Below, piece after piece: positions 39,486-51,281 of a stretch of 59,573 nt of DNA. Each line of letters opens with the position of its first letter. Positions within the stretch are counted from its first letter, which is position 1. A program made the translations under genes and the position numbers. Source of the DNA: a virus (Duplodnaviria; Caudoviricetes); IMG/VR virus record IMGVR_UViG_3300028585_000026, positions 1-59,573 of that record; one strand, 5' to 3'. The notes below the pieces were generated by a model. It saw only the letters and a list, made by a program, of their open reading frames with translations, made no database searches and had not been told where the DNA came from.

Positions 39486-39787
39486 TGAACGATCGAGTGC
39501 AGATCCTGAAGCGCGTCGCCGGCCGCGACAGCGCTGGCCAGCCCACCGAAAGCTGGTCGGCGCTCCGGTCAACCTGGGCGAACGTCAAATTCCAGTCCGG
39601 CGCCGGCGCCATCCGTGCGAATGCGGACCTCTCGATCGTGAAGTGCTCGATCAGGATCCGGGTTTGCCGCGACATCGATGCCTCAATGCGCGCGCGCTAC
39701 AAGGGCATCGATTACGACATCGAGGCGGTGCTGCCAGATTCGGACGATCGGGACTTCATGTTTCTGGTCTGCGAGAGCGTGAAATGA
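39482..39787 (+). CDS. Head closure / head-tail adaptor
   Basis: DSAGQPTESW, WANV, YDIEAV. Confidence 0.85.
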   Translation: MMNDRVQILKRVAGRDSAGQPTESWSALRSTWANVKFQSGAGAIRANADLSIVKCSIRIRVCRDIDASMRARYKGIDYDIEAVLPDSDDRDFMFLVCESVK

Positions 39788-40332
39788 TCGACTTTGACAT
39801 GAGTGGTTTTGAAGCCGCGATGACAGCGGCACAAAGGACGATCACTGAAGCAGTTGGCGAAGAGACGCTGCGTACGGTTGGATTCTCAGCTGCCGAAGTG
39901 TTTCGCGATGAGGCCAAACTCAACGCACTGAAGCGCGCCAAAACCTACACGATTTATAGAAACATCATTGCCAAACGGCTGATTGAAGAAGCTGACGGCG
40001 GCCGGCGGCAGGTCTATTTGGTGACTGTGCGCTCAGGCCAATTTAACGGCAGCGACGCGTTTTATTGGAAATTTGTCGCAAACGGTCACGCGAAGGTAAG
40101 GCAAAACAAGAACGTCAGCAAGAAGACTGGCCGCGTAGTGAACTGGAAGCGGCATAGAGCTCGAGAGGCGAAATACTGGGAGAAAAAAGCAGCGGAGCTG
40201 GAGAACGGCACCGCTATGGTCCCAGCGTATCCGTTTATGAGGCCAGCCTTTGAGAGTAAGAAGCAAGAGGCGGCTGATGCCATGACAAAAACCTTGGCTG
40301 AACAACTTAGCAAAAATCTGACAAAACCATGA
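39784..40332 (+). CDS. HK97 gp10-family neck/tail-completion protein
   Basis: AFYWKFV..G and PAYPFMRPAFE motifs; position between head closure and tail terminator. Confidence 0.85.
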   Translation: MIDFDMSGFEAAMTAAQRTITEAVGEETLRTVGFSAAEVFRDEAKLNALKRAKTYTIYRNIIAKRLIEEADGGRRQVYLVTVRSGQFNGSDAFYWKFVANGHAKVRQNKNVSKKTGRVVNWKRHRAREAKYWEKKAAELENGTAMVPAYPFMRPAFESKKQEAADAMTKTLAEQLSKNLTKP

Positions 40333-41526: not shown

Positions 41527-41844
41527 ATGGCAAAAGCAAAACTCTCCCTGGCCGTCGCCGCTACCTTCGCTGCAGTCGTTGCCATTCCGGTCCCGGGCGG
41601 CAAAACCGCCGATGTGGAATTCACCTTCAAGTGGATGAGCCGCGACAACTTTAAAGAATTCATCGAGAACCTGGCCGGCGCCGAAGACGTCGACGCGCTG
41701 ATGGACATCCTGGCAGGCTGGGACCTGGACGAGACCTTCAACAAGGACCAGGTCGAAAAGCTGGTGCAGCGCTACATGGGCGCCGCGCGCGCCATCCTCG
41801 ACAAGTTCATCGCCGAAGTCACCGGCGCCCGCGCAAAAAACTAA
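41527..41844 (+). CDS. Tail assembly chaperone (gpG-like)
   Basis: VEFTFK, GWDLDE; ends at slippery AAAAAAC. Confidence 0.85.
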   Translation: MAKAKLSLAVAATFAAVVAIPVPGGKTADVEFTFKWMSRDNFKEFIENLAGAEDVDALMDILAGWDLDETFNKDQVEKLVQRYMGAARAILDKFIAEVTGARAKN

Positions 41845-42158
41845 GGGCCGTCGCCTCGGCCCTTTACGAAGCAGAGCCCAGCGACGCCGATCTGGAGGTC
41901 GCGGGCCTGCGCCGTGAAGACTTGGCGGCGGATGCAGTTGAAGTCTGGCCCGAGAACCTGCGGGCCTTCGATCTTTTCTATGGGCTGCGCAAGCAGTGGC
42001 GACTCGCTCCAATGGGCGGTCCGATCGGTTTGGATTTTCTTGTCGCCTACAGCCGGATGGATCGGATGGGGCTGACGCCCGAGGAATACAACCAGTTGGA
42101 TGCGGACTTGCAGACGATGGAGGATGCAGCTCTCGAGGCGATGCGACGCAAGAACTAA
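41841..42158 (+). CDS. Tail assembly chaperone frameshift extension (gpT/DUF1799-like)
   Basis: Open -1 frame after A AAA AAC (41835-41841); VWPEN, QWR, GLD, MEDAAL. Confidence 0.8.
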   Translation, partial: LRAVASALYEAEPSDADLEVAGLRREDLAADAVEVWPENLRAFDLFYGLRKQWRLAPMGGPIGLDFLVAYSRMDRMGLTPEEYNQLDADLQTMEDAALEAMRRKN

Positions 42159-42185
42159 AGGGGGTATCGAATCGATACCCCCTTT
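42157..42185. terminator. Perfect 14-bp inverted repeat, probable bidirectional terminator
   Basis: AAAGGGGGTATCGA-A-TCGATACCCCCTTT between convergent genes. Confidence 0.65.
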
Positions 42186-42712
42186 CACGGAAGAATTTTT
42201 TTGCGCCCAGCCGTTTCACTCATTTCGAGAATCGCCTCTTGGAACTCGTTTAAGTCTAGGCCCGCTTCCGCGGCCCCAGAAAGGCTTTGCAGCTGTTCAA
42301 GGCTCTTTCGCATTTCGTCGATACGCTTCATCGACTCCTGTTGCAGCATTTGCGGAGAATGAATTGCTGAGCTTGCCTCAGACATCATTTTTTTGACCTC
42401 TGCTATGAGCTGAACTTCTGCCGGGTCAAGACGGGGGAGAAGGAGCTCCCCAAGCTGGCGAAGATGCGTGGCAACGATTGTTGACTTCAACTGCTCGGTA
42501 ATTTTCTGCGCATCCGTGAGATTCAGAAGAATACTTAAGCGTGCCACTGCAGTGGCCATCGCGGGGGCGGTGTCATCGAATGACTGTTCGAGCCGGGCGA
42601 TGAATTCTGCATTGAGCGACTTGCCGCTGCCGTCTGCAGCTTCTTGGAGTTTTGCGTGCAATGGCCTCGGAAGCCGCAATGCAGTTTTTACGTAATCGTC
42701 TTGGGTTGCCAT
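42185..42712 (-). CDS. Arc/Mnt-family ribbon-helix-helix repressor
   Basis: TALRLPRPLHAKLQEAADGSGKSLNAEFIARLEQSF. Confidence 0.85.
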   Translation of the reverse strand: MATQDDYVKTALRLPRPLHAKLQEAADGSGKSLNAEFIARLEQSFDDTAPAMATAVARLSILLNLTDAQKITEQLKSTIVATHLRQLGELLLPRLDPAEVQLIAEVKKMMSEASSAIHSPQMLQQESMKRIDEMRKSLEQLQSLSGAAEAGLDLNEFQEAILEMSETAGRKKILP

Positions 42713-42760
42713 AGCCGCAATGGTACACAGCGTGTCCCAAGTGTGCCACTAAAATAGTTC

Positions 42761-42815
42761 TTGCCTTCACTTTGGAGGCACTATACTATTGTCTACATGC
42801 CTTCAAAATGAAGGC
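42761..42815 (+). promoter_or_regulatory. Pant-like promoter with two 17-bp palindromic operators
   Basis: GCCTTCACTTTGGAGGC (42763-42779), GCCTTCAAAATGAAGGC (42799-42815); TTGCCT-N17-TACTAT. Confidence 0.7.
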
Positions 42816-42833
42816 GAAAATGGAGAGGAAATG

Positions 42834-43004
42834 ATGGCAACTCGAAAGGACATCGAGATCTGGCGCGGCCAAGTCCGCCTGCCCGGGCCTCTTGCGGAGT
42901 GGATAAAGGAGCGCGCGGATCAAAGTTATCGTTCGCTGAACGCGGAATTTGTGGAAGTAATTCGCGAGGCGAAGCATGCGGCTGAGAAACGGGAAGTCGC
43001 TTAA
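42834..43004 (+). CDS. Arc-like repressor
   Basis: QVRLPGPLAEWIKERADQSYRSLNAEFV. Confidence 0.85.
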   Translation: MATRKDIEIWRGQVRLPGPLAEWIKERADQSYRSLNAEFVEVIREAKHAAEKREVA

Positions 43005-43079
43005 CAAAAGAAAACCCCGAGCGATCTTGGCGGATGGGCTCGGGGCTTTAGTGAAACCACAGCTAAATGAGGAATCGAG

Positions 43080-43862
43080 ATGAATGCTATGACAAGCACG
43101 GCGAAATTGCAACTGGCACTGACCTTCGAAGGTCATTCAATCAAGACTATCGTGCGCGATGGTCAACTGTGGATGAGTGGCACCGAGGTCGGGGTGGCGC
43201 TCGCGTATGCCAGCCCGGACAAGGCAATTAAGCAGCTCTTTAACGCTCGCGCTGATGAGTTCACGTCAACAATGACGAAAGTCATTAAGGTCCTGACGGC
43301 GGGCGGCAAGCAAGCAGTGCGGTTTTTCAGTCTGCGCGGCGCCCACCTTCTGGCCATGTTCGCCAGGACCGACAAAGCGAAGGCGTTTCGCGTTTGGGTG
43401 CTGAACATCCTCGATAAGGAAGTGGCGCAGGTTAAGGCTGCTCCTGTCCAGAGCTATAGCTTTCCCCTGGCGAGTTGCAAGCCAGTGCCGAGGGGCGATT
43501 GCTTTGATAGCCAGGCGCAGTTCGATCTCAAGTCGCTGACCGATCCTCGCAACCCGGCGCCGGAGCTTGACTTGATCAGGCAGCTCGAGCGCGATGGCCA
43601 CGACGTCACCGGCGCGCGGGTTCGCATCCTCGCCCTGCGCGAACAGTTGGGCTATATGCTGATGGCCAATGAGCGCATGGGCGTATGGCAGGAGCGGCTG
43701 GCAGGCATGATGCGGGAGATGACTGATTACCAGCGGCCTCAAGGTGTCGGGGCGCTTTTCTCTCGAGAGCCGCAGGGGCTTTCGCGACTCTCTTTCAGTG
43801 CGCAGCTGCCTGACTACGATGGCATGAAGTTTGGCTTCCGCAAGCTGGGAGGTGCTGCGTAA
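43080..43862 (+). CDS. BRO-N domain antirepressor
   Basis: FSLRGAHLLAMFARTDKAKAFRVWVLNILD. Confidence 0.85.
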   Translation: MNAMTSTAKLQLALTFEGHSIKTIVRDGQLWMSGTEVGVALAYASPDKAIKQLFNARADEFTSTMTKVIKVLTAGGKQAVRFFSLRGAHLLAMFARTDKAKAFRVWVLNILDKEVAQVKAAPVQSYSFPLASCKPVPRGDCFDSQAQFDLKSLTDPRNPAPELDLIRQLERDGHDVTGARVRILALREQLGYMLMANERMGVWQERLAGMMREMTDYQRPQGVGALFSREPQGLSRLSFSAQLPDYDGMKFGFRKLGGAA

Positions 43863-44431
43863 TGGAGATCCTCAAGCTCAAACTGACCGGTACATCGCCG
43901 CTGATGATGCACAGCGACCGATTGGCCAACCCACTGCTGCCCGAGACGAAAGCGCACAAGTCGCTGACAGCAAAGCGCAAAAAGACTGACGAGGATCACC
44001 TCGCAATCGCACGATCCGAGTTCGTCAGCGGCCTTTACTGGAATGAGGCCGCCGGCGTGCACGTGCCGGGACAGAACTTCGATGCCACGTTCCTGGCTGG
44101 CGCCAAGCTGCAGAAACTCGGCACCGCATGGAAGCGCGGCGCGTTGGTGATGACCGACCGGGTGAAACTGCTGTACGACGGCCCGAAATCTCCAGCAGCG
44201 CTGTGGGAGGACAATCGCTTCATCGACTGCCGCGGCGTGAAGGTTGGCTCGGCAAAGGTGATGAGGTATCGGCCGGTCTTCCTGGAATGGGCAGCCGAGC
44301 TCGAGCTCGCATTCAATCCTGAAATTCTCGATGAGGGCGAGGTGCGGAAAGCGCTGGCAGACGCTGGCGCGCTGATCGGCGTCTGCGAGTACCGCCCTCG
44401 CTTCGGCCGCTTCGAGGTGGCGTATGGATGA
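43862..44431 (+). CDS. Stand-alone RAMP/Cas7-like protein (Vipr-like RNA-guided effector)
   Basis: LKLTGTSPLMMH first strand, HVPGQNF helix-start motif, C-terminal Gly-rich loop GALIGVCEYRPRFGRFEV; upstream of the pentamer arrays. Confidence 0.8.
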   Translation: MEILKLKLTGTSPLMMHSDRLANPLLPETKAHKSLTAKRKKTDEDHLAIARSEFVSGLYWNEAAGVHVPGQNFDATFLAGAKLQKLGTAWKRGALVMTDRVKLLYDGPKSPAALWEDNRFIDCRGVKVGSAKVMRYRPVFLEWAAELELAFNPEILDEGEVRKALADAGALIGVCEYRPRFGRFEVAYG

Positions 44432-44894
44432 CACGGCAGAGCCGACCCTGCTGCCGGAATGGCGTCAAGCGGTGAGGGATTTCCTCTCCGCTGGCTTCAA
44501 GGAGGGCGATATCGTGCCGCACGCCTGGCTCGAGCAGCACTTCGGCATGGCAAAGTTGGACGAGGACAAGCCGCTGCTGCCGGCTGACTGGAGCGCGAGG
44601 CAGTTCGACTGGCTGCGCAATATTGAATCGTTTCGAACCGAGCTGCTCGAACAGCATCAGGTTTTTCTCAGCAGCGTTTATGGCGAAGGCTATAGGCTGG
44701 TACCACCCAGGGAGCAGAGCGCGATCGCGCAAGAGCGGTTCGAGCGGGACGCGAAGCGCTCATATAGGAAGGCAGCGGCAACGCTGAAGAACGTGAGGCT
44801 CGGCGAGTTGACGGAGGCGGAACGAAAGGAAAACCTCGATGCCATCGCGCGCATTGCGATGTTGCGCGGAATGCACAAGACGGCAGTGGAATAG
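44424..44894 (+). CDS. Accessory wHTH-like protein of the RAMP cassette
   Basis: LSSVYGEGYRLV wing motif, helical C-terminus; overlaps the RAMP gene stop. Confidence 0.65.
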   Translation: MDDTAEPTLLPEWRQAVRDFLSAGFKEGDIVPHAWLEQHFGMAKLDEDKPLLPADWSARQFDWLRNIESFRTELLEQHQVFLSSVYGEGYRLVPPREQSAIAQERFERDAKRSYRKAAATLKNVRLGELTEAERKENLDAIARIAMLRGMHKTAVE

Positions 44895-44900
44895 AATTCC

Positions 44901-45004
44901 GCCGAGCTTCGATTCGGCAGGCTCGGCCTTGGTACGGCATGGCATGGCTTGGCGGGCTATGGGCTGACAACAGCAGCCAGCATCTTCGATGAGGGTGTTG
45001 GTTG
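44901..45004 (+). ncRNA. Guide-like RNA 1: 13 GGY-NN pentamers plus a 14-bp hairpin
   Basis: gccga gcttc gattc ggcag gctcg gcctt ggtac ggcat ggcat ggctt ggcgg gctat gggct; hairpin 44974-45004 with 4 G-U pairs. Confidence 0.8.
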
Positions 45005-45021
45005 ATGCGGTTAGCATCGCT

Positions 45022-45153
45022 AGCGAGGTACGGCAAGTCTTGGCTGGGTCCGATTCGGCTCGGCACGGCAAGCTCGGGTCAGGCTAGGTAAGGCGCGGTT
45101 TGCCGTGGTATGGGTAGCAAGCGAAAAGCTCCGAGAGGGGCTTTTCGTGTTGC
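45022..45153 (+). ncRNA. Guide-like RNA 2: 18-19 GGY-NN pentamers plus a GAGA-tetraloop hairpin
   Basis: Strict 5-nt period over 45027-45116; hairpin 45121-45148. Confidence 0.8.
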
Positions 45154-45197
45154 CCGATTGTGCTGGTGTAACATTGCCGCTCAATAAAGGAGGCGGC

Positions 45198-45557
45198 ATG
45201 GCGAAACTTGAAATACACGCGGGTGATTTCCCGAATGGTAGCCACTCGATTGGCTTCAACGTGATTACGTTGAACTGGCAGCCGGGCGACGGCCTTACCG
45301 GAAAAAGCATCGCTCTCATTGGCTACTTGACATCGGTGTCTATAGCGACAGAGGAAGAAGTTAGGCGAGTTGGCGGAACGATCGGTTGGGGTCTAGCAGG
45401 AGCTGCAATCCTCGGACCGGTTGGGCTGCTTGCGGGAGCGCTCCTGGGTGGCAAGGGGAAGGACGTTACGTTCGTTGCTCAGTTCAACGACGGCAAGAAG
45501 ATGCTTGCCACTACGGATTCGAAAACATTTACAAAAATGCAGGCGCTTGTGTTTTAG
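45198..45557 (+). CDS. Small protein with Gly-zipper hydrophobic segment
   Basis: AGGAGG RBS; GWGLAGAAILGPVGLLAGALLGG. Confidence 0.7.
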   Translation: MAKLEIHAGDFPNGSHSIGFNVITLNWQPGDGLTGKSIALIGYLTSVSIATEEEVRRVGGTIGWGLAGAAILGPVGLLAGALLGGKGKDVTFVAQFNDGKKMLATTDSKTFTKMQALVF

Positions 45558-45578
45558 TGAGCGCAGCTACCGGCAACC

Positions 45579-45603
45579 AAGCCGCCTTCGGGCGGCTTTT
45601 TTT
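45579..45603 (+). terminator. Intrinsic terminator
   Basis: GCCGCC-TTCG-GGCGGC plus T7. Confidence 0.8.
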
Positions 45604-45614
45604 ATGGGCGGAAC

Positions 45615-48600
45615 ATGAGCGAAATCGTAAACGAGGCAGTCATTAAGGTTTCGGCCGACGCCAGCGGCGTCGAGACTGGTCTTCGTGAAGTCGAGAAAGC
45701 GACCGCCAAGACAGGAAAGAATCTCGAGAACCTCGCTGCGACTGCAGGCAAGGCCAGCAAGTCCCTCGAAAACCTTGGTAGCACGCCGGGCTTGCGGACT
45801 GTCGGCGACGGCGCTGGCGCAGCAGCGGGCAAGGTCGACAGCGCGACCAAAAGCATGGCCGAAGCGATCCAGCGCGCCACCGCTACGATGAATGTTGGCG
45901 CGAAGGGTAGCGCCGCCTACTACGCGGCCTTGGCAAATACACGTGGGCTGAACGTCGCGGCGCTGCAGCCTTACCTTGATCAGTTGGATGCCGTCACCAA
46001 GAAGACGGCGCAGGCAGCCGCCGCCCAGCGTCAGCTTGACGAGGGCAATAATTTTCTCGCCGGATTGCGCTCCCAGGCGGATGGAATCGGAAAGACTGCG
46101 TCACAACTAGCCGCCCTGCGCGCCGAGCAGTTGGGTGTTGCAGATGATGCGCGCCCGCTGATCGAGCAGTTGGGAGCTGCAGAGGAGGCCGCCGGGAATG
46201 CAGGAAATTCAGTGAGTGGTTTCGCTGCTGCACTCGCCGCGGCCGGCGCCAGCGCCGGGATCGCGAGCGTGGTGCAACTCTCGGATGCATACGGCAGTTA
46301 CCTCGCCCAACTCAAGCTGGCGACAACCGGCCAAAGCGAGTTTTTGAGGGCTCAGGCATCTACGCAGCAGATTGCCGCCTCCGCCCAGTCGGACCTTGCA
46401 AGCACCGCTTCACTCTACGCGAGCATCACGAAGAGCACCCGCGATCTCGGCATTGCCCAGGCACAGGTGGCCAATATCACAGAAGTCGTAAGTCTGGCGC
46501 TGAAGGTATCGGGGGCAAGCACGCAATCAGCGTCTTCGGCGATCCTGCAGCTATCCCAAGCATTCGCGTCAGGAGTTCTGCGCGGTGAGGAATTCAACTC
46601 TGTAAATGAAGCGTCGCCGCGATTGATGGAGGCGCTAGCCGATGGGATCGGCGTGCCAGTCGGCGCACTGCGCGCAATGGCCGAACAGGGTGCGCTGACG
46701 ACCGAGGTGCTTGCAAACGGATTGCCACGAGCGCTGGAAAAGCTCCGCGAAGAGGCGAAGTCGGTTGAGACGGTCGGCGGCGCGATCACGGTCCTCAAGG
46801 ACAAAACGATGCTGCTCGTCGGTGCCACCGCGCAGTCGAGCGGAGTAGTCGCCGTGCTGTCGGGCGGGATCAGGCTGCTGAGCGATAACCTCGTACTCGC
46901 GGGCGGGGCGATGGCTACCGTTGCTGCTGTCAAACTCGGGGCATCCCTTGCGTCGGCAGCCTCCGGCGCCTACGCCAGCGTAGTAGCAAACAACGCCAGG
47001 CTAGCATCGAATCTTGCGGCCGCCCGGTCGGACGTCGCTGCCACTGCAAGTGCTGCCGCGCTCGCTAGCGCGCGTGTGACCGAATTGCGTGCTGCTGTAC
47101 TCGCTGCCGAGGGCAATGTCGCGCTGGCGATTACTACGAACGCTCTGATTCCCGCTCAGGCGAAAGCCACTACTGCGGCCGCAGCGCACGCAGCGGCGCT
47201 ATCCGCACAGGCTGCAGCTGCAGGCGCGGCATCGGTAGCGGGGCGCGCCTTCAGCGGCGTGATGGCGCTGGCCGGCGGTCCGGTGGGCGTCATCATCGGT
47301 CTGCTGGGCGTGGCTGCTACGATCTGGGGTGTATGGGCAAGCAAGGCGAAAGAGTCAAATGACAAGGTAGCGCAGTCTACCGACGAATCGACAGCTGACA
47401 TGATCAAGCGGCTGGACGAGCAAATCGCGAAACTTCGCGAGCGCAATGCTCTGGCCGCCGAGGACCCGCGAGTCAAGGCCCTGGATGGCATAAGCCAGGT
47501 CGACCGGGATGGACTTGAGCGCGCTCGGGAGGCGCTGGCGAAGAATAAAGCTGACCAACAGGCGAATCGCGACAACAGGCAATACCACCTCAATATTGAC
47601 CTGCGCACGCAGGAAATTGAACTTTCGAAAAACTATGAGGCGGCGCTGAGCAGGGTGGCTACCCTGCAAGGCGAGGTTGCGATTGCAGCAGCACGCACTC
47701 GCAATGAGCGACTCGATCAGTGGTTCGAGAAAAACGGCACCCCGGCGCAGCGTCTTGCGGCGGAACTCGCAGAACTCAAAAAGCAGTTTGGGGCCATTCC
47801 GCCAGAGATGGAAAAGCTGGTGCGCGCCAAGTATGTCGACCCGGCTGCAGCGAAAGCGATCTCGGACCAGGGAAGAGCCGCCAAGGAGTATGCCGATCTA
47901 CTCGCCCGCATCAACGGCAAGAGCCTGGGCGTCGATTCAGACTACGAAGAGAACGTAGCAAAGCTGGCCGCTGGGTTTAAAGCTGGCAAGCAGTCGCTGG
48001 CCGAGTACAACGCTACTCTCGAAAAGTACAACAGCCAACAGCCACGCGCGAAGCAGGCGGAAGAGGACCGGGCCAAGGCCCTCAAGGAAATCAGCGACTT
48101 CCAGACCGAGTATTCGAAAGGCTTGGAGGCGACGAGCACGGTCTATGCCAAGCGCCTGCAGGATGCCGAAACCGAAGCGAGCCGCAACGAGGACCTGGCG
48201 CGCACCTACGGCATGACCACGTCAGCGATCGAGCAGCTGGAGCTGGCGCGGCTGGAGGAGCAGCTGGCCCAGCGCTCGACGCTCGGCCTGACGCTGGACG
48301 AGATTGAGCACCTCGAAAAGCTGATCGACGTGAAGAGGCGCAATGCGGTGGCCGTATCCGCAATGGAGCAGGTCGACGCAGCGAAGAAGGCTGCTGAGGA
48401 ATGGAAGCGCACCTCTGCAACGATCGAGCAGTCACTGACCGATGCGCTGCTGCGCGGGTTCGAGTCCGGCAATGGCTTGGGCAAGAACTTTGTCGAGACG
48501 ATGAAGAACATGTTCAGCACGCTGGTCCTGCGTCCCGTGATCCAGGCGGTGGTGGCGCCGGCGAGCAACAGCCTGGCCGGCATGCTTGGCCAAGGCGGAT

Positions 48601-51281
48601 CGAGTGGTACGCTGGCCAACGCCGGCAGCCTGATCAATATGGGCAAGACGATCTACTCCGGGTTCACCGGCGGGATCGCGAGCACGCTGGGCGGCTGGGC
48701 GAGCTCGGCTGGCTCGATGTTTGGATCGTCGGCCGTGTCGTCGTTCGGCGCGGGCCTGTCGGCGGCGGGCGGCAACACCGGCATGGCGGCGATGTACGCG
48801 TCGGCCCAGACCTCCGGGAACTTGGCCGCTGGAGCCTCTGCCGGCATGAGCGCGGGCACCTACGCCATCCCAATTGCAGGCTGGATCGCGGCCGGAATGG
48901 CCCTGTCGAACAACCTGTACAAGCAGGGCTGGGACGCCAACAACGGCACGGTGAACTCGCTGGGCAAGGTGGTAAATGCGCCGATGTTCCTGGCAAACAA
49001 TATCCTCAAGGGTATTGGGCTGAGCGACTCTGCTGCCAACATCTTCGCCGGCATGGGACCGATCTCGAAGCTGTTCGGCCGGAAGAACCCTGAGATCGAA
49101 GAGGGCGGAGTTCGCGGCTCGATCAGTGCCGCCGGATTCGTTGGCGAGAACTACGCAAAAATCCTGGAGAAAGGGGGCTGGTTCCGCAGCGACAAGCGTT
49201 ACACCGAAACCAACCCGCTGAGCACTGACCAGCAGAGCGGCTTCTCCGACAGTACGAAAGCGCTGATGGATGCGGCGCGCGGCTTCGCTGCAACGCTGGG
49301 CATCGAAGCAAGCATCATCGACGGCTACAACAAGCAGATCACGCTGCAGCTCGGTGCCGACGAGGAAAAGAACAAGGAGGCGATCGCCAAGCTGTTCGGC
49401 AACATCGGCGATGACCTGTCGCTGCTGCTCTTGCCATCCGTGGCGTCCTTCTCGACCGCAGGCGAAAGCGTGAGCACCACGATGCAGCGACTGGTGACGG
49501 ACTACGTCGCCATCGACGAAGCATTCACCGCCATCGGGACGACCTTTGGCACGTCGGGCGCTGCATCCTTGGCGGCGCGGGAGAAGTTTCTTGCGGCGGC
49601 CGGCGGCTTGGAGTCGTTCGCAAACAACGCGGCCTTTTTCCACGAGAACTTCCTCTCCGAGGCGGAGCGCAATGCGCCGGTGTTGAGGTCGGTCACCGAG
49701 CAGATGGCGGCGCTCAGCCTGGCCAGCGTGGACACGCGTGAGGAGTTCAAGCAGGCGGTGCTCGCCCTGACTGAGAGCGGCGCGCTGGCAACCGAGGAGG
49801 GCGCTGCTCGCTACGCGGCATTGATGAAGGTGCAGGCCGGCTTCGCGCAGGTCTATCCGGCGATCGATGCTACGGCCGAAGCGGCCGCGCGCGCGGCAGA
49901 CGTTCTACAAGAGCGGAATGACCTGCAGCGGGAACTCGACCAGCTCACACTTTCGGCAGCCGAACTGTTGGCCCAACAGCGCGCCGCGCTCGACGAGAGC
50001 AACCGCGGGCTGTTTGACCAGATACAGGTGATCAAGGCCAAAACGGCGGCGGAGGAGGCGGCCACCGAGGCAGCCCAGAAGGCGAAAGATGCTGCCGCGT
50101 CGCTGATGTCTGGCGTAGACGGCGCGTTCTCGGTCCTCCAGAAGGTGGCCGACCGCCAGAAGAAGGCGCTGCAGGAAGAGATCAACGTGCGCACGCAGTC
50201 GGTCCAAAAGATCGAAGCGCTTTCCCAGTCCCTGCGCAGCACGCTGGAGGGCATGACAGTTCAAGGCCGCGAGGCTGAGGACCGCCAGGCAGCCCAAGCG
50301 CAGATCCAGGCGGCGCTGGCCATCGCGAAAGCGAGCGGCAAGCTGCCGAACGCGGACGACCTGAAAACGGCCCTGTCGGTGGTCAGCAAGGATTCGGCCA
50401 ATCTGTTCGCCACGCAGGAGGACTACCTGCGCGACTTCTACGCCACCCGGATCGGTATCGAGGATCTGGCAGGCCTGACCGACGATGCACTGTCGGTCGA
50501 GGAGCGCAGCTTGGCCAAGCTGGAGGACCAGGTAAAGCAGTACGACCTGATGCTCGAGCGCGAGCAGGAGCAGATCGACGTCCTCAAGGGCATCAGCACC
50601 ATCGGTCTTTCGATCGAGCAGGCCATCCAGGCGCTGCACGGCGCAATGCAGGCCGCCAGCGCGAACCCGGTCAACTCGGCCACGTCGGCGATTAACCAAG
50701 CCTACCAGTCCGCTCTCGGCCGTGCGCCGGATCAGGCTGGGCTCGACTACTGGAAAGACCGGGCCGCTGGCGGTATCTCGACCGGCGCCATCGTCGATTC
50801 GATCAAGGGTTCGCCTGAGGCGCAGATCCAGAAGCTGTACCAGGACGTGTTCGGCCGCCCGGCTGATGCGGCCGGGTTGAGTTATTGGGTCGACCGGCTC
50901 AGCGGTGGGATCAGCCTGGGCGCCATCCGGGGCACGCTGGAAGACAGCGACGAGGCCAAAAAGAAGCTTCGCGGCTTCGCCGTTGGCACCAACTTCATCC
51001 CGGCCGACATGCCAGCGATGGTCCACCAGGGTGAGCGGATCATTCCTGCGGCTGACAACCGCGAACTGATGCGCCGCCTGGCCAGCCCAGAGCAGGGCAG
51101 CAATGCGTTGATCGCCGAGATCCGCGCGCTCCGTGAGGAGGTTGCTCTTCTGCGCGGAGAGGCCGAAAGGGGAACGGACGCGGCTGTGCAGCTCGCCGAT
51201 CAGTTCGACAACGTAACGGACGGCGGAAACGCTTGCCGCGTCGAAGTCATCAATAAAGTGCGCACCAAGGAGACCGCATGA
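45615..51281 (+). CDS. Tape measure protein
   Basis: 1888 aa, Ala-rich; QLSQAFASGVLRGEEFNSVNE tape-measure motif. Confidence 0.95.
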   Translation: MSEIVNEAVIKVSADASGVETGLREVEKATAKTGKNLENLAATAGKASKSLENLGSTPGLRTVGDGAGAAAGKVDSATKSMAEAIQRATATMNVGAKGSAAYYAALANTRGLNVAALQPYLDQLDAVTKKTAQAAAAQRQLDEGNNFLAGLRSQADGIGKTASQLAALRAEQLGVADDARPLIEQLGAAEEAAGNAGNSVSGFAAALAAAGASAGIASVVQLSDAYGSYLAQLKLATTGQSEFLRAQASTQQIAASAQSDLASTASLYASITKSTRDLGIAQAQVANITEVVSLALKVSGASTQSASSAILQLSQAFASGVLRGEEFNSVNEASPRLMEALADGIGVPVGALRAMAEQGALTTEVLANGLPRALEKLREEAKSVETVGGAITVLKDKTMLLVGATAQSSGVVAVLSGGIRLLSDNLVLAGGAMATVAAVKLGASLASAASGAYASVVANNARLASNLAAARSDVAATASAAALASARVTELRAAVLAAEGNVALAITTNALIPAQAKATTAAAAHAAALSAQAAAAGAASVAGRAFSGVMALAGGPVGVIIGLLGVAATIWGVWASKAKESNDKVAQSTDESTADMIKRLDEQIAKLRERNALAAEDPRVKALDGISQVDRDGLERAREALAKNKADQQANRDNRQYHLNIDLRTQEIELSKNYEAALSRVATLQGEVAIAAARTRNERLDQWFEKNGTPAQRLAAELAELKKQFGAIPPEMEKLVRAKYVDPAAAKAISDQGRAAKEYADLLARINGKSLGVDSDYEENVAKLAAGFKAGKQSLAEYNATLEKYNSQQPRAKQAEEDRAKALKEISDFQTEYSKGLEATSTVYAKRLQDAETEASRNEDLARTYGMTTSAIEQLELARLEEQLAQRSTLGLTLDEIEHLEKLIDVKRRNAVAVSAMEQVDAAKKAAEEWKRTSATIEQSLTDALLRGFESGNGLGKNFVETMKNMFSTLVLRPVIQAVVAPASNSLAGMLGQGGSSGTLANAGSLINMGKTIYSGFTGGIASTLGGWASSAGSMFGSSAVSSFGAGLSAAGGNTGMAAMYASAQTSGNLAAGASAGMSAGTYAIPIAGWIAAGMALSNNLYKQGWDANNGTVNSLGKVVNAPMFLANNILKGIGLSDSAANIFAGMGPISKLFGRKNPEIEEGGVRGSISAAGFVGENYAKILEKGGWFRSDKRYTETNPLSTDQQSGFSDSTKALMDAARGFAATLGIEASIIDGYNKQITLQLGADEEKNKEAIAKLFGNIGDDLSLLLLPSVASFSTAGESVSTTMQRLVTDYVAIDEAFTAIGTTFGTSGAASLAAREKFLAAAGGLESFANNAAFFHENFLSEAERNAPVLRSVTEQMAALSLASVDTREEFKQAVLALTESGALATEEGAARYAALMKVQAGFAQVYPAIDATAEAAARAADVLQERNDLQRELDQLTLSAAELLAQQRAALDESNRGLFDQIQVIKAKTAAEEAATEAAQKAKDAAASLMSGVDGAFSVLQKVADRQKKALQEEINVRTQSVQKIEALSQSLRSTLEGMTVQGREAEDRQAAQAQIQAALAIAKASGKLPNADDLKTALSVVSKDSANLFATQEDYLRDFYATRIGIEDLAGLTDDALSVEERSLAKLEDQVKQYDLMLEREQEQIDVLKGISTIGLSIEQAIQALHGAMQAASANPVNSATSAINQAYQSALGRAPDQAGLDYWKDRAAGGISTGAIVDSIKGSPEAQIQKLYQDVFGRPADAAGLSYWVDRLSGGISLGAIRGTLEDSDEAKKKLRGFAVGTNFIPADMPAMVHQGERIIPAADNRELMRRLASPEQGSNALIAEIRALREEVALLRGEAERGTDAAVQLADQFDNVTDGGNACRVEVINKVRTKETA

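What the first reader, a model, noticed from the sequence alone, without database searches (positions are those of the whole stretch)
39958..40098. Both guides decode, in codon register and skipping wobble bases, to the HK97-gp10 neck gene
I took only the internal NN pairs, reverse-complemented them and inserted one skipped base. Guide 1 gives CCn AAn ATn ATn GTn AAn CGn CTn GAn GAn, compatible with P-N-I-I-V-K-R-L-E-E. The prophage's own gp10 reads R-N-I-I-A-K-R-L-I-E at 39958-39987 (7/10 dinucleotides exact). Guide 2 gives ACn AAn GCn TTn TAn TGn CGn TTn GTn GAn GAn GGn CAn AAn TTn GTn, compatible with T-N-A-F-Y-W-R-F-V-E-D/E-G-H-K-F-V. The own gene reads S-D-A-F-Y-W-K-F-V-A-N-G-H-A-K-V at 40051-40098 (9/16 exact). 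Each match alone is modest, but both fall in one gene, on the same strand, ~65 bp apart, with the skipped base on codon position 3. Inference: the guides pair with the coding strand (or mRNA) of gp10 in related competitor phages, in a way synonymous mutation cannot escape.
Basis: partly seen in the sequence, partly recalled or inferred. Interest (0 to 1): 0.95.

Follow-up and report, generated by a model that had tools for sequence, protein, structure and literature searches.

The report
VIPR guide RNAs targeting rival phages
This phage carries a recently described VIPR system, whose two small guide RNAs read only the first two letters of each codon and are aimed at the neck-protein gene of related rival phages; it is a clear new example of a known system, not a new kind.

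Summary
The two "guides" are period-5 arrays (NN-G-N-Y units) at 44899-44960 and 45025-45111. Their NN pairs, reverse-complemented with one skipped base, give the unique best hits of the whole window at 39958-39986 (7/10) and 40051-40097 (9/16). Both lie in the Neck1/tail-completion gene 39784-40332, in frame, with the skipped base on codon position 3.

Orthologues in other phages match better than the self copy:
- The 9-unit core of guide 1 is exact in 65 IMG/VR stretches.
- The 14-unit core of guide 2 is exact in 7.
- 71 of these 72 lie inside homologues of this gene.

The system is already published in 2026 preprints as VIPR (Viral Interference Programmable Repeat). It has a small RAMP protein (Vipr), an accessory protein (Vap) and vrRNAs of GGY/NN repeats that bind double-stranded DNA by a "1-nt skip" rule aligned to wobble positions.
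- The upstream ORF 43862-44431 is 43.6% identical to SUSP1 Vipr (PDB 36pp, E 5e-45).
- ORF 44424-44894 resembles SUSP1 vap1.

Verdict: a new member of a known kind, probably type II.

The parts
43862..44431 (+). vipr gene: 189-aa minimal RAMP protein (phrog_4652)
   Evidence: 43.6% identity over 98% of its length to the SUSP1 protein at NC_028808.2 28501-29061 (blastp E 1.3e-56). PDB 36pp 'SUSP1 Vipr protein' matches at E 5.2e-45 over residues 1-186. The AF2 model from 29 sequences has pLDDT 91.5. All Foldseek PDB matches listed in the output are CRISPR RAMPs (Csm/Cmr/type III-D/type VII subunits, Cas6), best E 5e-5, TM about 0.5. No Pfam or PADLOC hit.
44424..44894 (+). vap1-like accessory gene: 156 aa (phrog_5926)
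   Evidence: Overlaps the vipr stop. 27.6% identity over 116 aa to the SUSP1 gene directly after vipr (blastp E 1.6e-16). PHROG E 2.5e-39. No Pfam, PADLOC or PDB sequence match of note.
44899..44960 (+). vrRNA1 repeat tract: 12 NN-G-N-Y units plus a final AT. The guide core that matches orthologues 9/9 is 44909-44950.
   Evidence: Six of the 12 scaffold triplets are canonical GGY; the rest are GCT x3, GCC x2 and GAT.
44961..45020 (+). vrRNA1 3' tail: invariant GGGCTGnnnnCAGC, then a covarying hairpin and a third small hairpin
   Evidence: Alignment of 44 tails from the family: columns 1-6 and 11-14 are invariant, and 11 of 16 predicted pairs keep pairing through changes on both sides. The hairpin is also in the MFE fold of the window RNA.
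45025..45111 (+). vrRNA2 repeat tract: 17 units plus a final AT. The guide core that matches orthologues 14/14 is 45030-45096.
   Evidence: Thirteen of the 17 scaffold triplets are GGY.
45112..45150 (+). vrRNA2 tail (GGGTAGCAAGCG) with a terminator-like hairpin AAAAGCTCC-GAGA-GGGGCTTTT
   Evidence: The hairpin is in the MFE fold. The same tail type occurs after the last array of L002 and, by eye, after an array in SUSP1. The consensus terminator scan did not flag it.
39784..40332 (+). The carrier's own Neck1/tail-completion (HK97 gp10-like) gene. Its orthologues in other phages are the targets.
   Evidence: phrog_5, E 2.4e-13. 71 of 72 IMG/VR loci with an exact guide-core match have it inside a tblastn match to this protein (44-74% identity).
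39958..39987 (+).
   Evidence: The mismatches are amino-acid-changing: own A and I where the targeted alleles have V and E.
40051..40098 (+).
   Evidence: The five core mismatches are amino-acid-changing: own K, A, N, A, K where the targeted alleles have R, E, D/E, K, F.

Best explanation
The stretch 43862-45150 is a VIPR (Viral Interference Programmable Repeat) locus of the SUSP1 / Pseudomonas-prophage kind, probably type II. It holds vipr, a vap1-like gene and two tandem vrRNAs.

By homology with the published systems, Vipr protomers would polymerise along each vrRNA, one per 5-nt unit. Each would bury the G-N-Y triplet and display the NN pair. The filament would then bind double-stranded DNA in which every third base is skipped, blocking transcription.

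Shown here:
- the homology of both proteins;
- the repeat and tail anatomy;
- the 1-nt skip rule across the family;
- the wobble register;
- the two vrRNAs of this phage match, exactly over their cores, two conserved motifs of the neck gene of many related phages (NIIVKRLEE and AFYWRFVE[D/E]GHKFV; the second letters of the D/E codon are fixed as GA);
- the carrier's own allele matches only 7/9 and 9/14, because of amino-acid differences.

Inferred, not shown:
- the RNAs are made and loaded;
- binding silences the rival's late operon from the neck gene onward;
- this excludes or cripples related phages in a lysogen while sparing the carrier.
For: Protein membership:
- Vipr homology.
- RAMP fold.
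- Four of the five SUSP1 residues whose alanine substitution abolished or reduced silencing are identical (K33, R39, K82, R138). The fifth is conservative (D177 to E). H17, G87 and R179 are also kept, and W178 becomes Y (residues from 10.64898/2026.04.26.720927, Results).
- Vap homology.

RNA anatomy:
- There are only two such arrays in the window.
- 76 of 80 related loci have at least one + strand array.
- Across 136 unique arrays of 8-23 units, 75.6% of scaffold triplets are GGY.
- The tail is conserved and covarying.

Code:
- With a 1-nt skip, 28 of 136 arrays find a site at 80% NN or more in the pooled loci, against 0 of 136 shuffled.
- With skips of 0 or 2, the count is 0 of 136 for both real and shuffled arrays.

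Register:
- 38 of 47 strong hits put NN on codon positions 1-2, against 59 of 136 for shuffled guides (Fisher p 6e-6).

Targets of this window.

Closest relative: in L002 (Vipr 91% identical), two of three vrRNAs also hit this gene family, at 10/11 and 12/15. One of these is a third motif.

Self matches: none reaches 80% in the window. None of the 47 strong hits in the family is a self hit. This agrees with the published 80% criterion and the absence of self-targeting (10.64898/2026.04.26.720920, Methods, 'Analysis of vrRNA natural targets').
Against: - Nothing about expression, loading or silencing was or could be tested for this locus.
- No sigma-70-like promoter was found in 43700-45700.
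- Half of vrRNA1's scaffold triplets are not GGY. The residues that hold G2 and Y3 in SUSP1 differ in part (W178 to Y, E71 to Q, M72 to N, C173 to I). Scaffold recognition may therefore differ in detail.
- vrRNA1's self match is 7/9 (78%) over the core, close to the published 80% cut-off. Some self-binding cannot be excluded.
- The annotation-free wobble test is weak. 33 of 47 strong hits skip the highest-GC phase, against 74 of 136 for shuffled guides (p 0.04), so composition explains part of that bias.
- Nine of the 47 strong hits were not in phase 0 by the longest-ORF proxy. I did not re-annotate them.
- The type II assignment rests on best homology to type II exemplars, not on the authors' phylogeny.
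Confidence: 0.9

Rival explanations
1. Self-regulation. The two vrRNAs act on the carrier's own neck gene through partial pairing, for example to keep late genes quiet in the lysogen. The better matches elsewhere would be incidental.
For: The best sites in the carrier's own genome are exactly the orthologous sites. vrRNA1 matches its core 7/9, just under the published 80% line.
Against: - Orthologues in 65 and 7 other contigs match the cores exactly. Guides tuned to the own gene would match the own gene best.
- vrRNA2 matches the self site only 9/14.
- The published survey found no self hit at 80% or more in any clade (10.64898/2026.04.26.720920, Methods).
- None of 47 strong family hits is a self hit, although those loci cover only about 10 kb either side.
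Confidence: 0.04
2. Antisense RNA. The guides pair with the neck-gene mRNA rather than with DNA.
For: Both guides of this window are complementary to the coding strand, hence also to the mRNA. The cryo-EM preprint reports that SUSP1 VIPR can pair with ssRNA (10.64898/2026.04.26.720927, Results).
Against: - In the family, 25 of 38 phase-0 strong hits are on the template strand, which no mRNA represents.
- The preprints report dsDNA binding and silencing from either strand. With ssRNA most particles (66%) were a 7-subunit intermediate, and no triplex formed (10.64898/2026.04.26.720920 and .720927, Results).
Confidence: 0.05
3. Chance resemblance, or arrays that are only protein-binding repeats with meaningless NN spacers. 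The second was my first idea, by analogy with TRAP-type triplet repeats (recalled).
For: Guide 1 alone is modest in the window: 55 of 1000 shuffles reach 7 or more.
Against: - Guide 2 reaches its score in 2 of 1000 shuffles, and co-location occurs in 5 of 1000.
- Exact 28-base and 18-base gapped matches fall inside orthologues in 71 of 72 loci.
- The family-wide excess appears only at a 1-nt skip.
Confidence: 0.005

Closest known systems
SUSP1 VIPR system (type II), Escherichia phage SUSP1. bioRxiv 10.64898/2026.04.26.720920, 10.64898/2026.04.26.720927 and 10.64898/2026.10.15.759431; PDB 36pp.
   Same: - Gene order vipr then vap1 then tandem vrRNAs on the same strand.
- Vipr 43.6% identical and Vap 27.6% identical.
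- Pentanucleotide GGY/NN repeats followed by a tail that starts (A/G)T-GGG.
- 1-nt skip rule, wobble register, sites on both strands, no self hit at 80% or more.
   Different: - The carrier here looks like a temperate phage. It has a long tape measure and an Arc/Ant immunity module, whereas SUSP1 is classed in Ounavirinae.
- There is no vrRNA upstream of vipr, because the anti-repressor gene abuts it.
- The targets are a late structural gene of related phages, not a satellite recombinase.
- The scaffold triplets are more degenerate.
- The tail is a set of hairpins. The SUSP1 pseudoknot was not tested here.
Pseudomonas fulva prophage VIPR clade (same preprints)
   Same: - Prophage-borne type II VIPR with vrRNA arrays that target other prophages and other VIPR loci.
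- In my family set, several strong hits fall inside vipr itself, for example L066 10082-10116 and L074 10079-10116.
- The nearest named phages are Pseudomonas phages: Medea1 at 71.8% and LESphi2 at 48.9%.
   Different: - I had no P. fulva sequence to compare, so membership of that clade (defined in the paper as more than 90% Vipr identity) is untested.
- The paper says that clade's vrRNAs mainly target lysis-lysogeny regulators. Here both vrRNAs target a neck gene.
- The paper's target tables (data S3) are supplements I could not open. Neck-gene targets may already be listed there.
Class 1 CRISPR-Cas backbone filaments (Cas7/Csm3/Cmr4 on crRNA)
   Same: RAMP fold. A protein filament on a guide RNA, with a thumb that interrupts the guide-target duplex periodically (10.64898/2026.04.26.720927, Results).
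   Different: - Two paired plus three buried bases per guide unit, and two paired plus one flipped per target unit. The preprint describes Class 1 CRISPR thumbs as disrupting base pairing at every sixth position.
- No CRISPR repeat-spacer array was found in the window.
- Among the nine ORFs I scanned around the locus, no cas gene and no nuclease turned up.

Membership tests
VIPR | Vipr protein: small (about 20 kDa) RAMP homologous to characterised Vipr | tested here: met
   189 aa. 43.6% identity to SUSP1 Vipr, E 1.3e-56. PDB 36pp E 5.2e-45. All Foldseek matches listed are CRISPR RAMPs (on a model with pLDDT 91.5).
VIPR | Residues that hold the GGY scaffold and the DNA strands in SUSP1 Vipr | tested here: met
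- Identical: H17, K33, R39, K82, G87, R138, R179.
- Conservative: D177 to E, W178 to Y.
- Changed: E71 to Q, M72 to N, K88 to T, C173 to I.
- The paper's 'T175' is V in the SUSP1 record and V here.
Of the five positions with reported alanine phenotypes, four are identical and one is conservative.
VIPR | Adjacent vap accessory gene | tested here: met
   The 156-aa ORF overlaps the vipr stop. Its identity to SUSP1 vap1 is 27.6%, E 1.6e-16. The predicted DNA-binding fold was not tested.
VIPR | vrRNA: tandem pentanucleotide repeats with conserved GGY (or a related consensus) and hypervariable NN; at least 4 units, typically 9-16 | tested here: met
   There are 12 and 17 G-N-Y units; 6/12 and 13/17 are GGY. 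In the family, 136 unique arrays have 8-23 units, 75.6% GGY, and NN that differ between loci. Note that my detector required G at position 1 and Y at position 3, so only position 2 was free to vary.
VIPR | Conserved, structured 3' tail after the repeat tract | tested here: met
   Invariant GGGCTGnnnnCAGC plus a hairpin. Eleven of 16 pairs are kept through double changes in 44 tails. A pseudoknot was not tested.
VIPR | 1-nt skip rule | tested here: met
   Arrays with a site at 80% NN or more:
- skip 1: 28 of 136 real against 0 of 136 shuffled;
- skips 0 and 2: 0 against 0.
Skip 3 only finds the array itself.
VIPR | Skipped base aligned to the codon wobble position; sites on either strand | tested here: met
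   38 of 47 strong hits are in phase 0 (13 sense, 25 antisense) against 59 of 136 shuffled, p 6e-6. The GC-phase proxy is weaker: 33/47 against 74/136, p 0.04.
VIPR | Natural targets at 80% NN or more in other mobile elements, and none in the own genome | tested here: met
- Self: 70% and 56%.
- Orthologues: 9/10 and 14/16, with the cores exact.
VIPR | vrRNAs expressed and bound by Vipr; dsDNA binding and transcriptional silencing | not testable with these tools
No bench data.
VIPR type II | Placement in the authors' Vipr phylogeny, with vap1 and a tandem downstream array | tested here: inconclusive
   Both proteins are homologous to those of the type II exemplar SUSP1, and there is a tandem downstream array. 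No tree was built.
CRISPR-Cas | Repeat-spacer array and cas operon | tested here: not met
   Tandem Repeats Finder and Rfam find no CRISPR repeat in the window. The neighbouring ORFs are Arc-like proteins, an anti-repressor and phage structural genes.
HK97 gp10-like (Pfam) / Neck1 tail-completion (PHROG) | Profile match of the target protein | tested here: inconclusive
   Pfam gives no HK97-gp10 hit even at E up to 10. PHROG phrog_5 'tail completion or Neck1' matches at E 2.4e-13. Synteny between head closure (PF05521) and tail terminator (PF11367) fits.

The most novel reading that the evidence does not exclude
This may be kin-directed VIPR acting on structural genes.

In this sub-lineage the vrRNAs are aimed at the most conserved motifs of the neck protein of the carrier's own phage family. 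There are two motifs here and a third in the 91%-identical relative L002. The carrier is spared only because its own allele differs at amino-acid-determining bases: 2 of 9 and 5 of 14 core units.

If so, VIPR would define heritable 'exclusion groups' among related temperate phages. It would also drive protein-level diversification of an essential virion gene. That target class and consequence are not stated in the main texts of the three preprints I read, though their supplements may list such targets.
Probability: 0.3. Interest if true: 0.5.

Novelty: new member of a known kind. Interest (0 to 1): 0.3.

Why it matters
The rule holds here, so the call is sound, but the mechanism is already in print.

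What this locus adds is modest.
- It is a clean natural case in which both guides of one phage converge on a late structural gene of its relatives.
- The carrier's own allele is a built-in near-cognate control (7/9 and 9/14).
- Dozens of exact natural targets are on record.

That makes it a convenient system for two measurements. One is how many NN mismatches VIPR tolerates. The other is whether silencing inside a late operon is enough to exclude a rival phage.

Tried and rejected
Searches that gave nothing:
- Tandem Repeats Finder does not report the arrays.
- ARAGORN finds no tRNA. Rfam at gathering scores finds no family.
- Pfam has no family for Vipr, Vap or the target protein. PADLOC has none for Vipr or Vap.
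- A PDB sequence search with Vap gave only E of 0.07 or worse.
- blastn of the locus against named phages found only Medea1 (two records) and LESphi2.
- The sigma-70 promoter scan found none in 43700-45700, and the terminator scan did not flag the vrRNA2 hairpin.
- A single-sequence AF2 model of Vipr was useless (pLDDT 32.4). It was replaced by a model from a 29-sequence alignment chosen by hand from the 80 related loci plus the window.

Ideas rejected:
- NN as meaningless spacers of a TRAP-like protein-binding array. One search shows that they carry target information.
- A quintuplet or otherwise translated reading of the arrays. There is no support, and the match is to DNA of either strand.
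- Skips of 0 or 2 bases.
- Special divergence of the carrier's allele inside the footprints. By eye, the footprints are at least as conserved as the rest of the protein against L083 (7/9 and 11/14 residues, against 68% overall). There is therefore no sign of targeted escape, only ordinary allelic difference.

Caveats on counts:
- Searches used + strand arrays of at least 8 perfect G-N-Y units and at least 4 different NN. That gave 156 arrays, 136 of them unique. Shorter or degenerate arrays were dropped.
- The pooled target set was only the 80 loci plus the window.
- Gene calls are 'longest open frame over the site', not annotation.
They may already list this locus, this clade or neck-gene targets.

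Full report
WHAT IS THERE

The finding's coordinates (39958-40098) lie inside an ORF that starts with ATG at 39784 and ends at 40332. PHROGs calls the protein 'tail completion or Neck1' (phrog_5, E 2.4e-13). Pfam has no match for it, not even HK97-gp10 at a lax threshold. Its neighbours are a head-closure protein (PF05521) and a tail terminator (PF11367).

The 'guides' were not located in the finding. Searching for its dinucleotides at fixed spacing found them once each, with 3-base spacers, at 44909-44955 and 45030-45106 on the + strand. They are period-5 arrays of NN-G-N-Y units. A detector for at least 7 perfect units finds exactly two arrays in the window on both strands, with 12 and 17 units.

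The arrays sit in the 300-bp gap after two overlapping ORFs: 43862-44431 (189 aa, phrog_4652) and 44424-44894 (156 aa, phrog_5926). Downstream come a small ORF and the tape-measure gene. The window is a whole virus record of 59,573 bases.

IS THE MATCH MORE THAN CHANCE?

- Guide 1: 7/10, with the next best at 6.
- Guide 2: 9/16, with the next best at 7.

With the order of the NN pairs shuffled:
- 55 of 1000 shuffles reach guide 1's score.
- 2 of 1000 reach guide 2's score.
- The two best sites are co-located in one frame in 5 of 1000.

IS IT GENERAL?

The 189-aa protein brought in 80 related IMG/VR loci. 76 of them carry at least one + strand array. The four without one are cut close to the gene, or belong to the clade whose arrays lie upstream.

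From these loci and the window I took 136 unique arrays of at least 8 units, and searched the pooled loci with skips of 0, 1, 2 and 3 bases.
- 1-nt skip: 28 of 136 arrays reach 80% NN match or more, against 0 of 136 shuffled. At 70% or more the counts are 63 against 11.
- Skips 0 and 2: no excess.
- Skip 3: each array only finds itself.

Among the 47 arrays whose best hit is at least 75%:
- 38 place the NN on codon positions 1-2 of the longest open frame (25 on the template strand, 13 on the coding strand).
- The same measure gives 59 of 136 for shuffled guides (Fisher p 6e-6).
- An annotation-free proxy (does the skipped phase have the highest G+C?) gives 33 of 47 against 74 of 136 (p 0.04). 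Base composition therefore explains part of that second signal.
- None of the 47 is a hit to the array's own locus.

WHAT DO THIS PHAGE'S GUIDES TARGET?

In 11 loci fetched with the neck protein, orthologues beat the self copy.
- Guide 1's nine central units are 9/9 in L083, L085 and L086, against 7/9 in self.
- Guide 2's fourteen central units reach 12/14 in several of those orthologues, against 9/14 in self. Between them, L083 and L085 cover all fourteen.

An exact scan of IMG/VR gave these results.
- The 14-unit pattern found 7 contigs. All are in orthologues, in frame, reading AFYWRFVE[D/E]GHKFV.
- The 9-unit pattern found 65 stretches. 64 read NIIVKRL[E/D]E.
- 63 of the 65 have a guide-2 site 96 or 99 nt downstream in the same frame, scoring 9 to 13 of 14. 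Thirty score 13 and thirteen score 12. One further stretch is cut by the locus end and one is a chance hit.
- In 71 of the 72 loci the pattern lies inside a tblastn match to the window's protein (44-74% identity).

The self mismatches are all amino-acid-changing. In the closest relative, L002 (Vipr 91% identical), two of three arrays also hit this gene family, at 10/11 and 12/15. One of them hits a third motif, ELEYGTASAPAYPFM.

WHAT IS IT?

A literature search led to three 2026 bioRxiv preprints.
- 10.64898/2026.04.26.720920: I read the abstract, all of Results, the Discussion, three Methods sections and some passages.
- 10.64898/2026.04.26.720927: I read the abstract and the first part of Results.
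- 10.64898/2026.10.15.759431: I read the abstract, one Results section, the Discussion and one Methods section.

They describe VIPR as follows:
- a roughly 20 kDa RAMP protein (Vipr) and an accessory gene (vap);
- vrRNAs of 9-16 YNNGG repeats with a conserved 3' tail;
- recognition of double-stranded DNA by the NN pairs with one skipped target base;
- skipped bases mostly at wobble positions, with sites on both strands;
- transcriptional silencing, with targets in rival phages and satellites;
- a working cut-off of 80% NN match, and no self hits at that cut-off.

A second search for the system's own terms listed no other primary description.

MEMBERSHIP

- The 189-aa protein is 43.6% identical to the SUSP1 protein that lies between such arrays in NC_028808.2.
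- It matches PDB 36pp 'SUSP1 Vipr protein' at E 5.2e-45.
- A model built from 29 family sequences (pLDDT 91.5) finds only CRISPR RAMPs among the Foldseek matches listed, in a PDB copy that predates 36pp.
- The contact residues named in the cryo-EM preprint are mostly kept.
- The 156-aa protein is homologous to SUSP1 vap1 (E 1.6e-16).
- The tail after the arrays is conserved: an invariant GGGCTGnnnnCAGC, then a hairpin in which 11 of 16 pairs are kept through double changes across 44 tails. The last vrRNA ends in a terminator-like hairpin.

HOW IT MOST LIKELY WORKS

By homology, Vipr would coat each vrRNA with one protomer per unit, bury the G-N-Y triplet and expose the NN. The filament would bind the neck gene of an incoming or resident related phage on its coding strand and block transcription.

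Because the gene lies early in the head-tail joining and tail part of the late operon, a block there would probably also starve the downstream tail genes.

These steps are inferred. Nothing about expression or silencing could be tested here. No promoter was seen.

VERDICT

The locus is a new member of a known kind.

The residual interest is the target class (a structural gene of the carrier's own kin, hit at two or three conserved motifs) and the carrier's near-cognate own allele. I could not find either in the main texts I read.

Noticed in passing
window 42185-43862: Directly upstream of vipr lies a P22 immI-like set: two divergently oriented Arc-like genes (42185-42712 on the - strand, 42789-43004 on the + strand) and a Bro-N/Ant anti-repressor (43080-43862). 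The whole block, together with the VIPR locus, is wedged between the likely tail-chaperone ORFs (41527-42158, assigned by position only) and the tape measure (45615-51281).
   Followed up: partly
window 45198-45557: A 119-aa ORF lies between the vrRNAs and the tape measure (phrog_12025 and phrog_20920, function unknown). By eye it has a glycine-rich hydrophobic stretch (GWGLAGAAILGPVGLLAGALLGG). A clean terminator follows at 45579-45598. It could be another moron, for example a membrane protein.
   Followed up: no
L020 12163-12218 and the vipr genes of L033, L066, L067 and L074: About a dozen different arrays from other loci converge, in antisense orientation, on one site in the 995-codon ORF just downstream of the VIPR locus of L020. 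Others hit inside vipr itself, for example L066 10082-10116 and L074 10079-10116. [quoted passage not shown]
   Followed up: partly
L070-L081: In the loci whose Vipr is 52-57% identical, the arrays mostly lie upstream of vipr and use almost only GGC scaffolds. Some reach 17 units.
   Followed up: no
window 45030-45036 and 45100-45106: The guide region of vrRNA2 is bracketed by a 7-nt inverted repeat (ACGGCAA ... TTGCCGT), seen by eye. It may be chance, because both arms are themselves repeat units.
   Followed up: no
window 44899-44960, against the family: Half of vrRNA1's scaffold triplets are GCT, GCC or GAT rather than GGY. Across 136 family arrays, 24% of triplets have a non-G second base. 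The residue that stacks on G2 in SUSP1 (W178) is Y here. Recognition of the second scaffold base may be relaxed in this clade.
   Followed up: partly
L043 333-370: A plain (GCCCA)n simple repeat was picked up by the array detector. I excluded it from all counts by requiring at least 4 different NN.
   Followed up: yes
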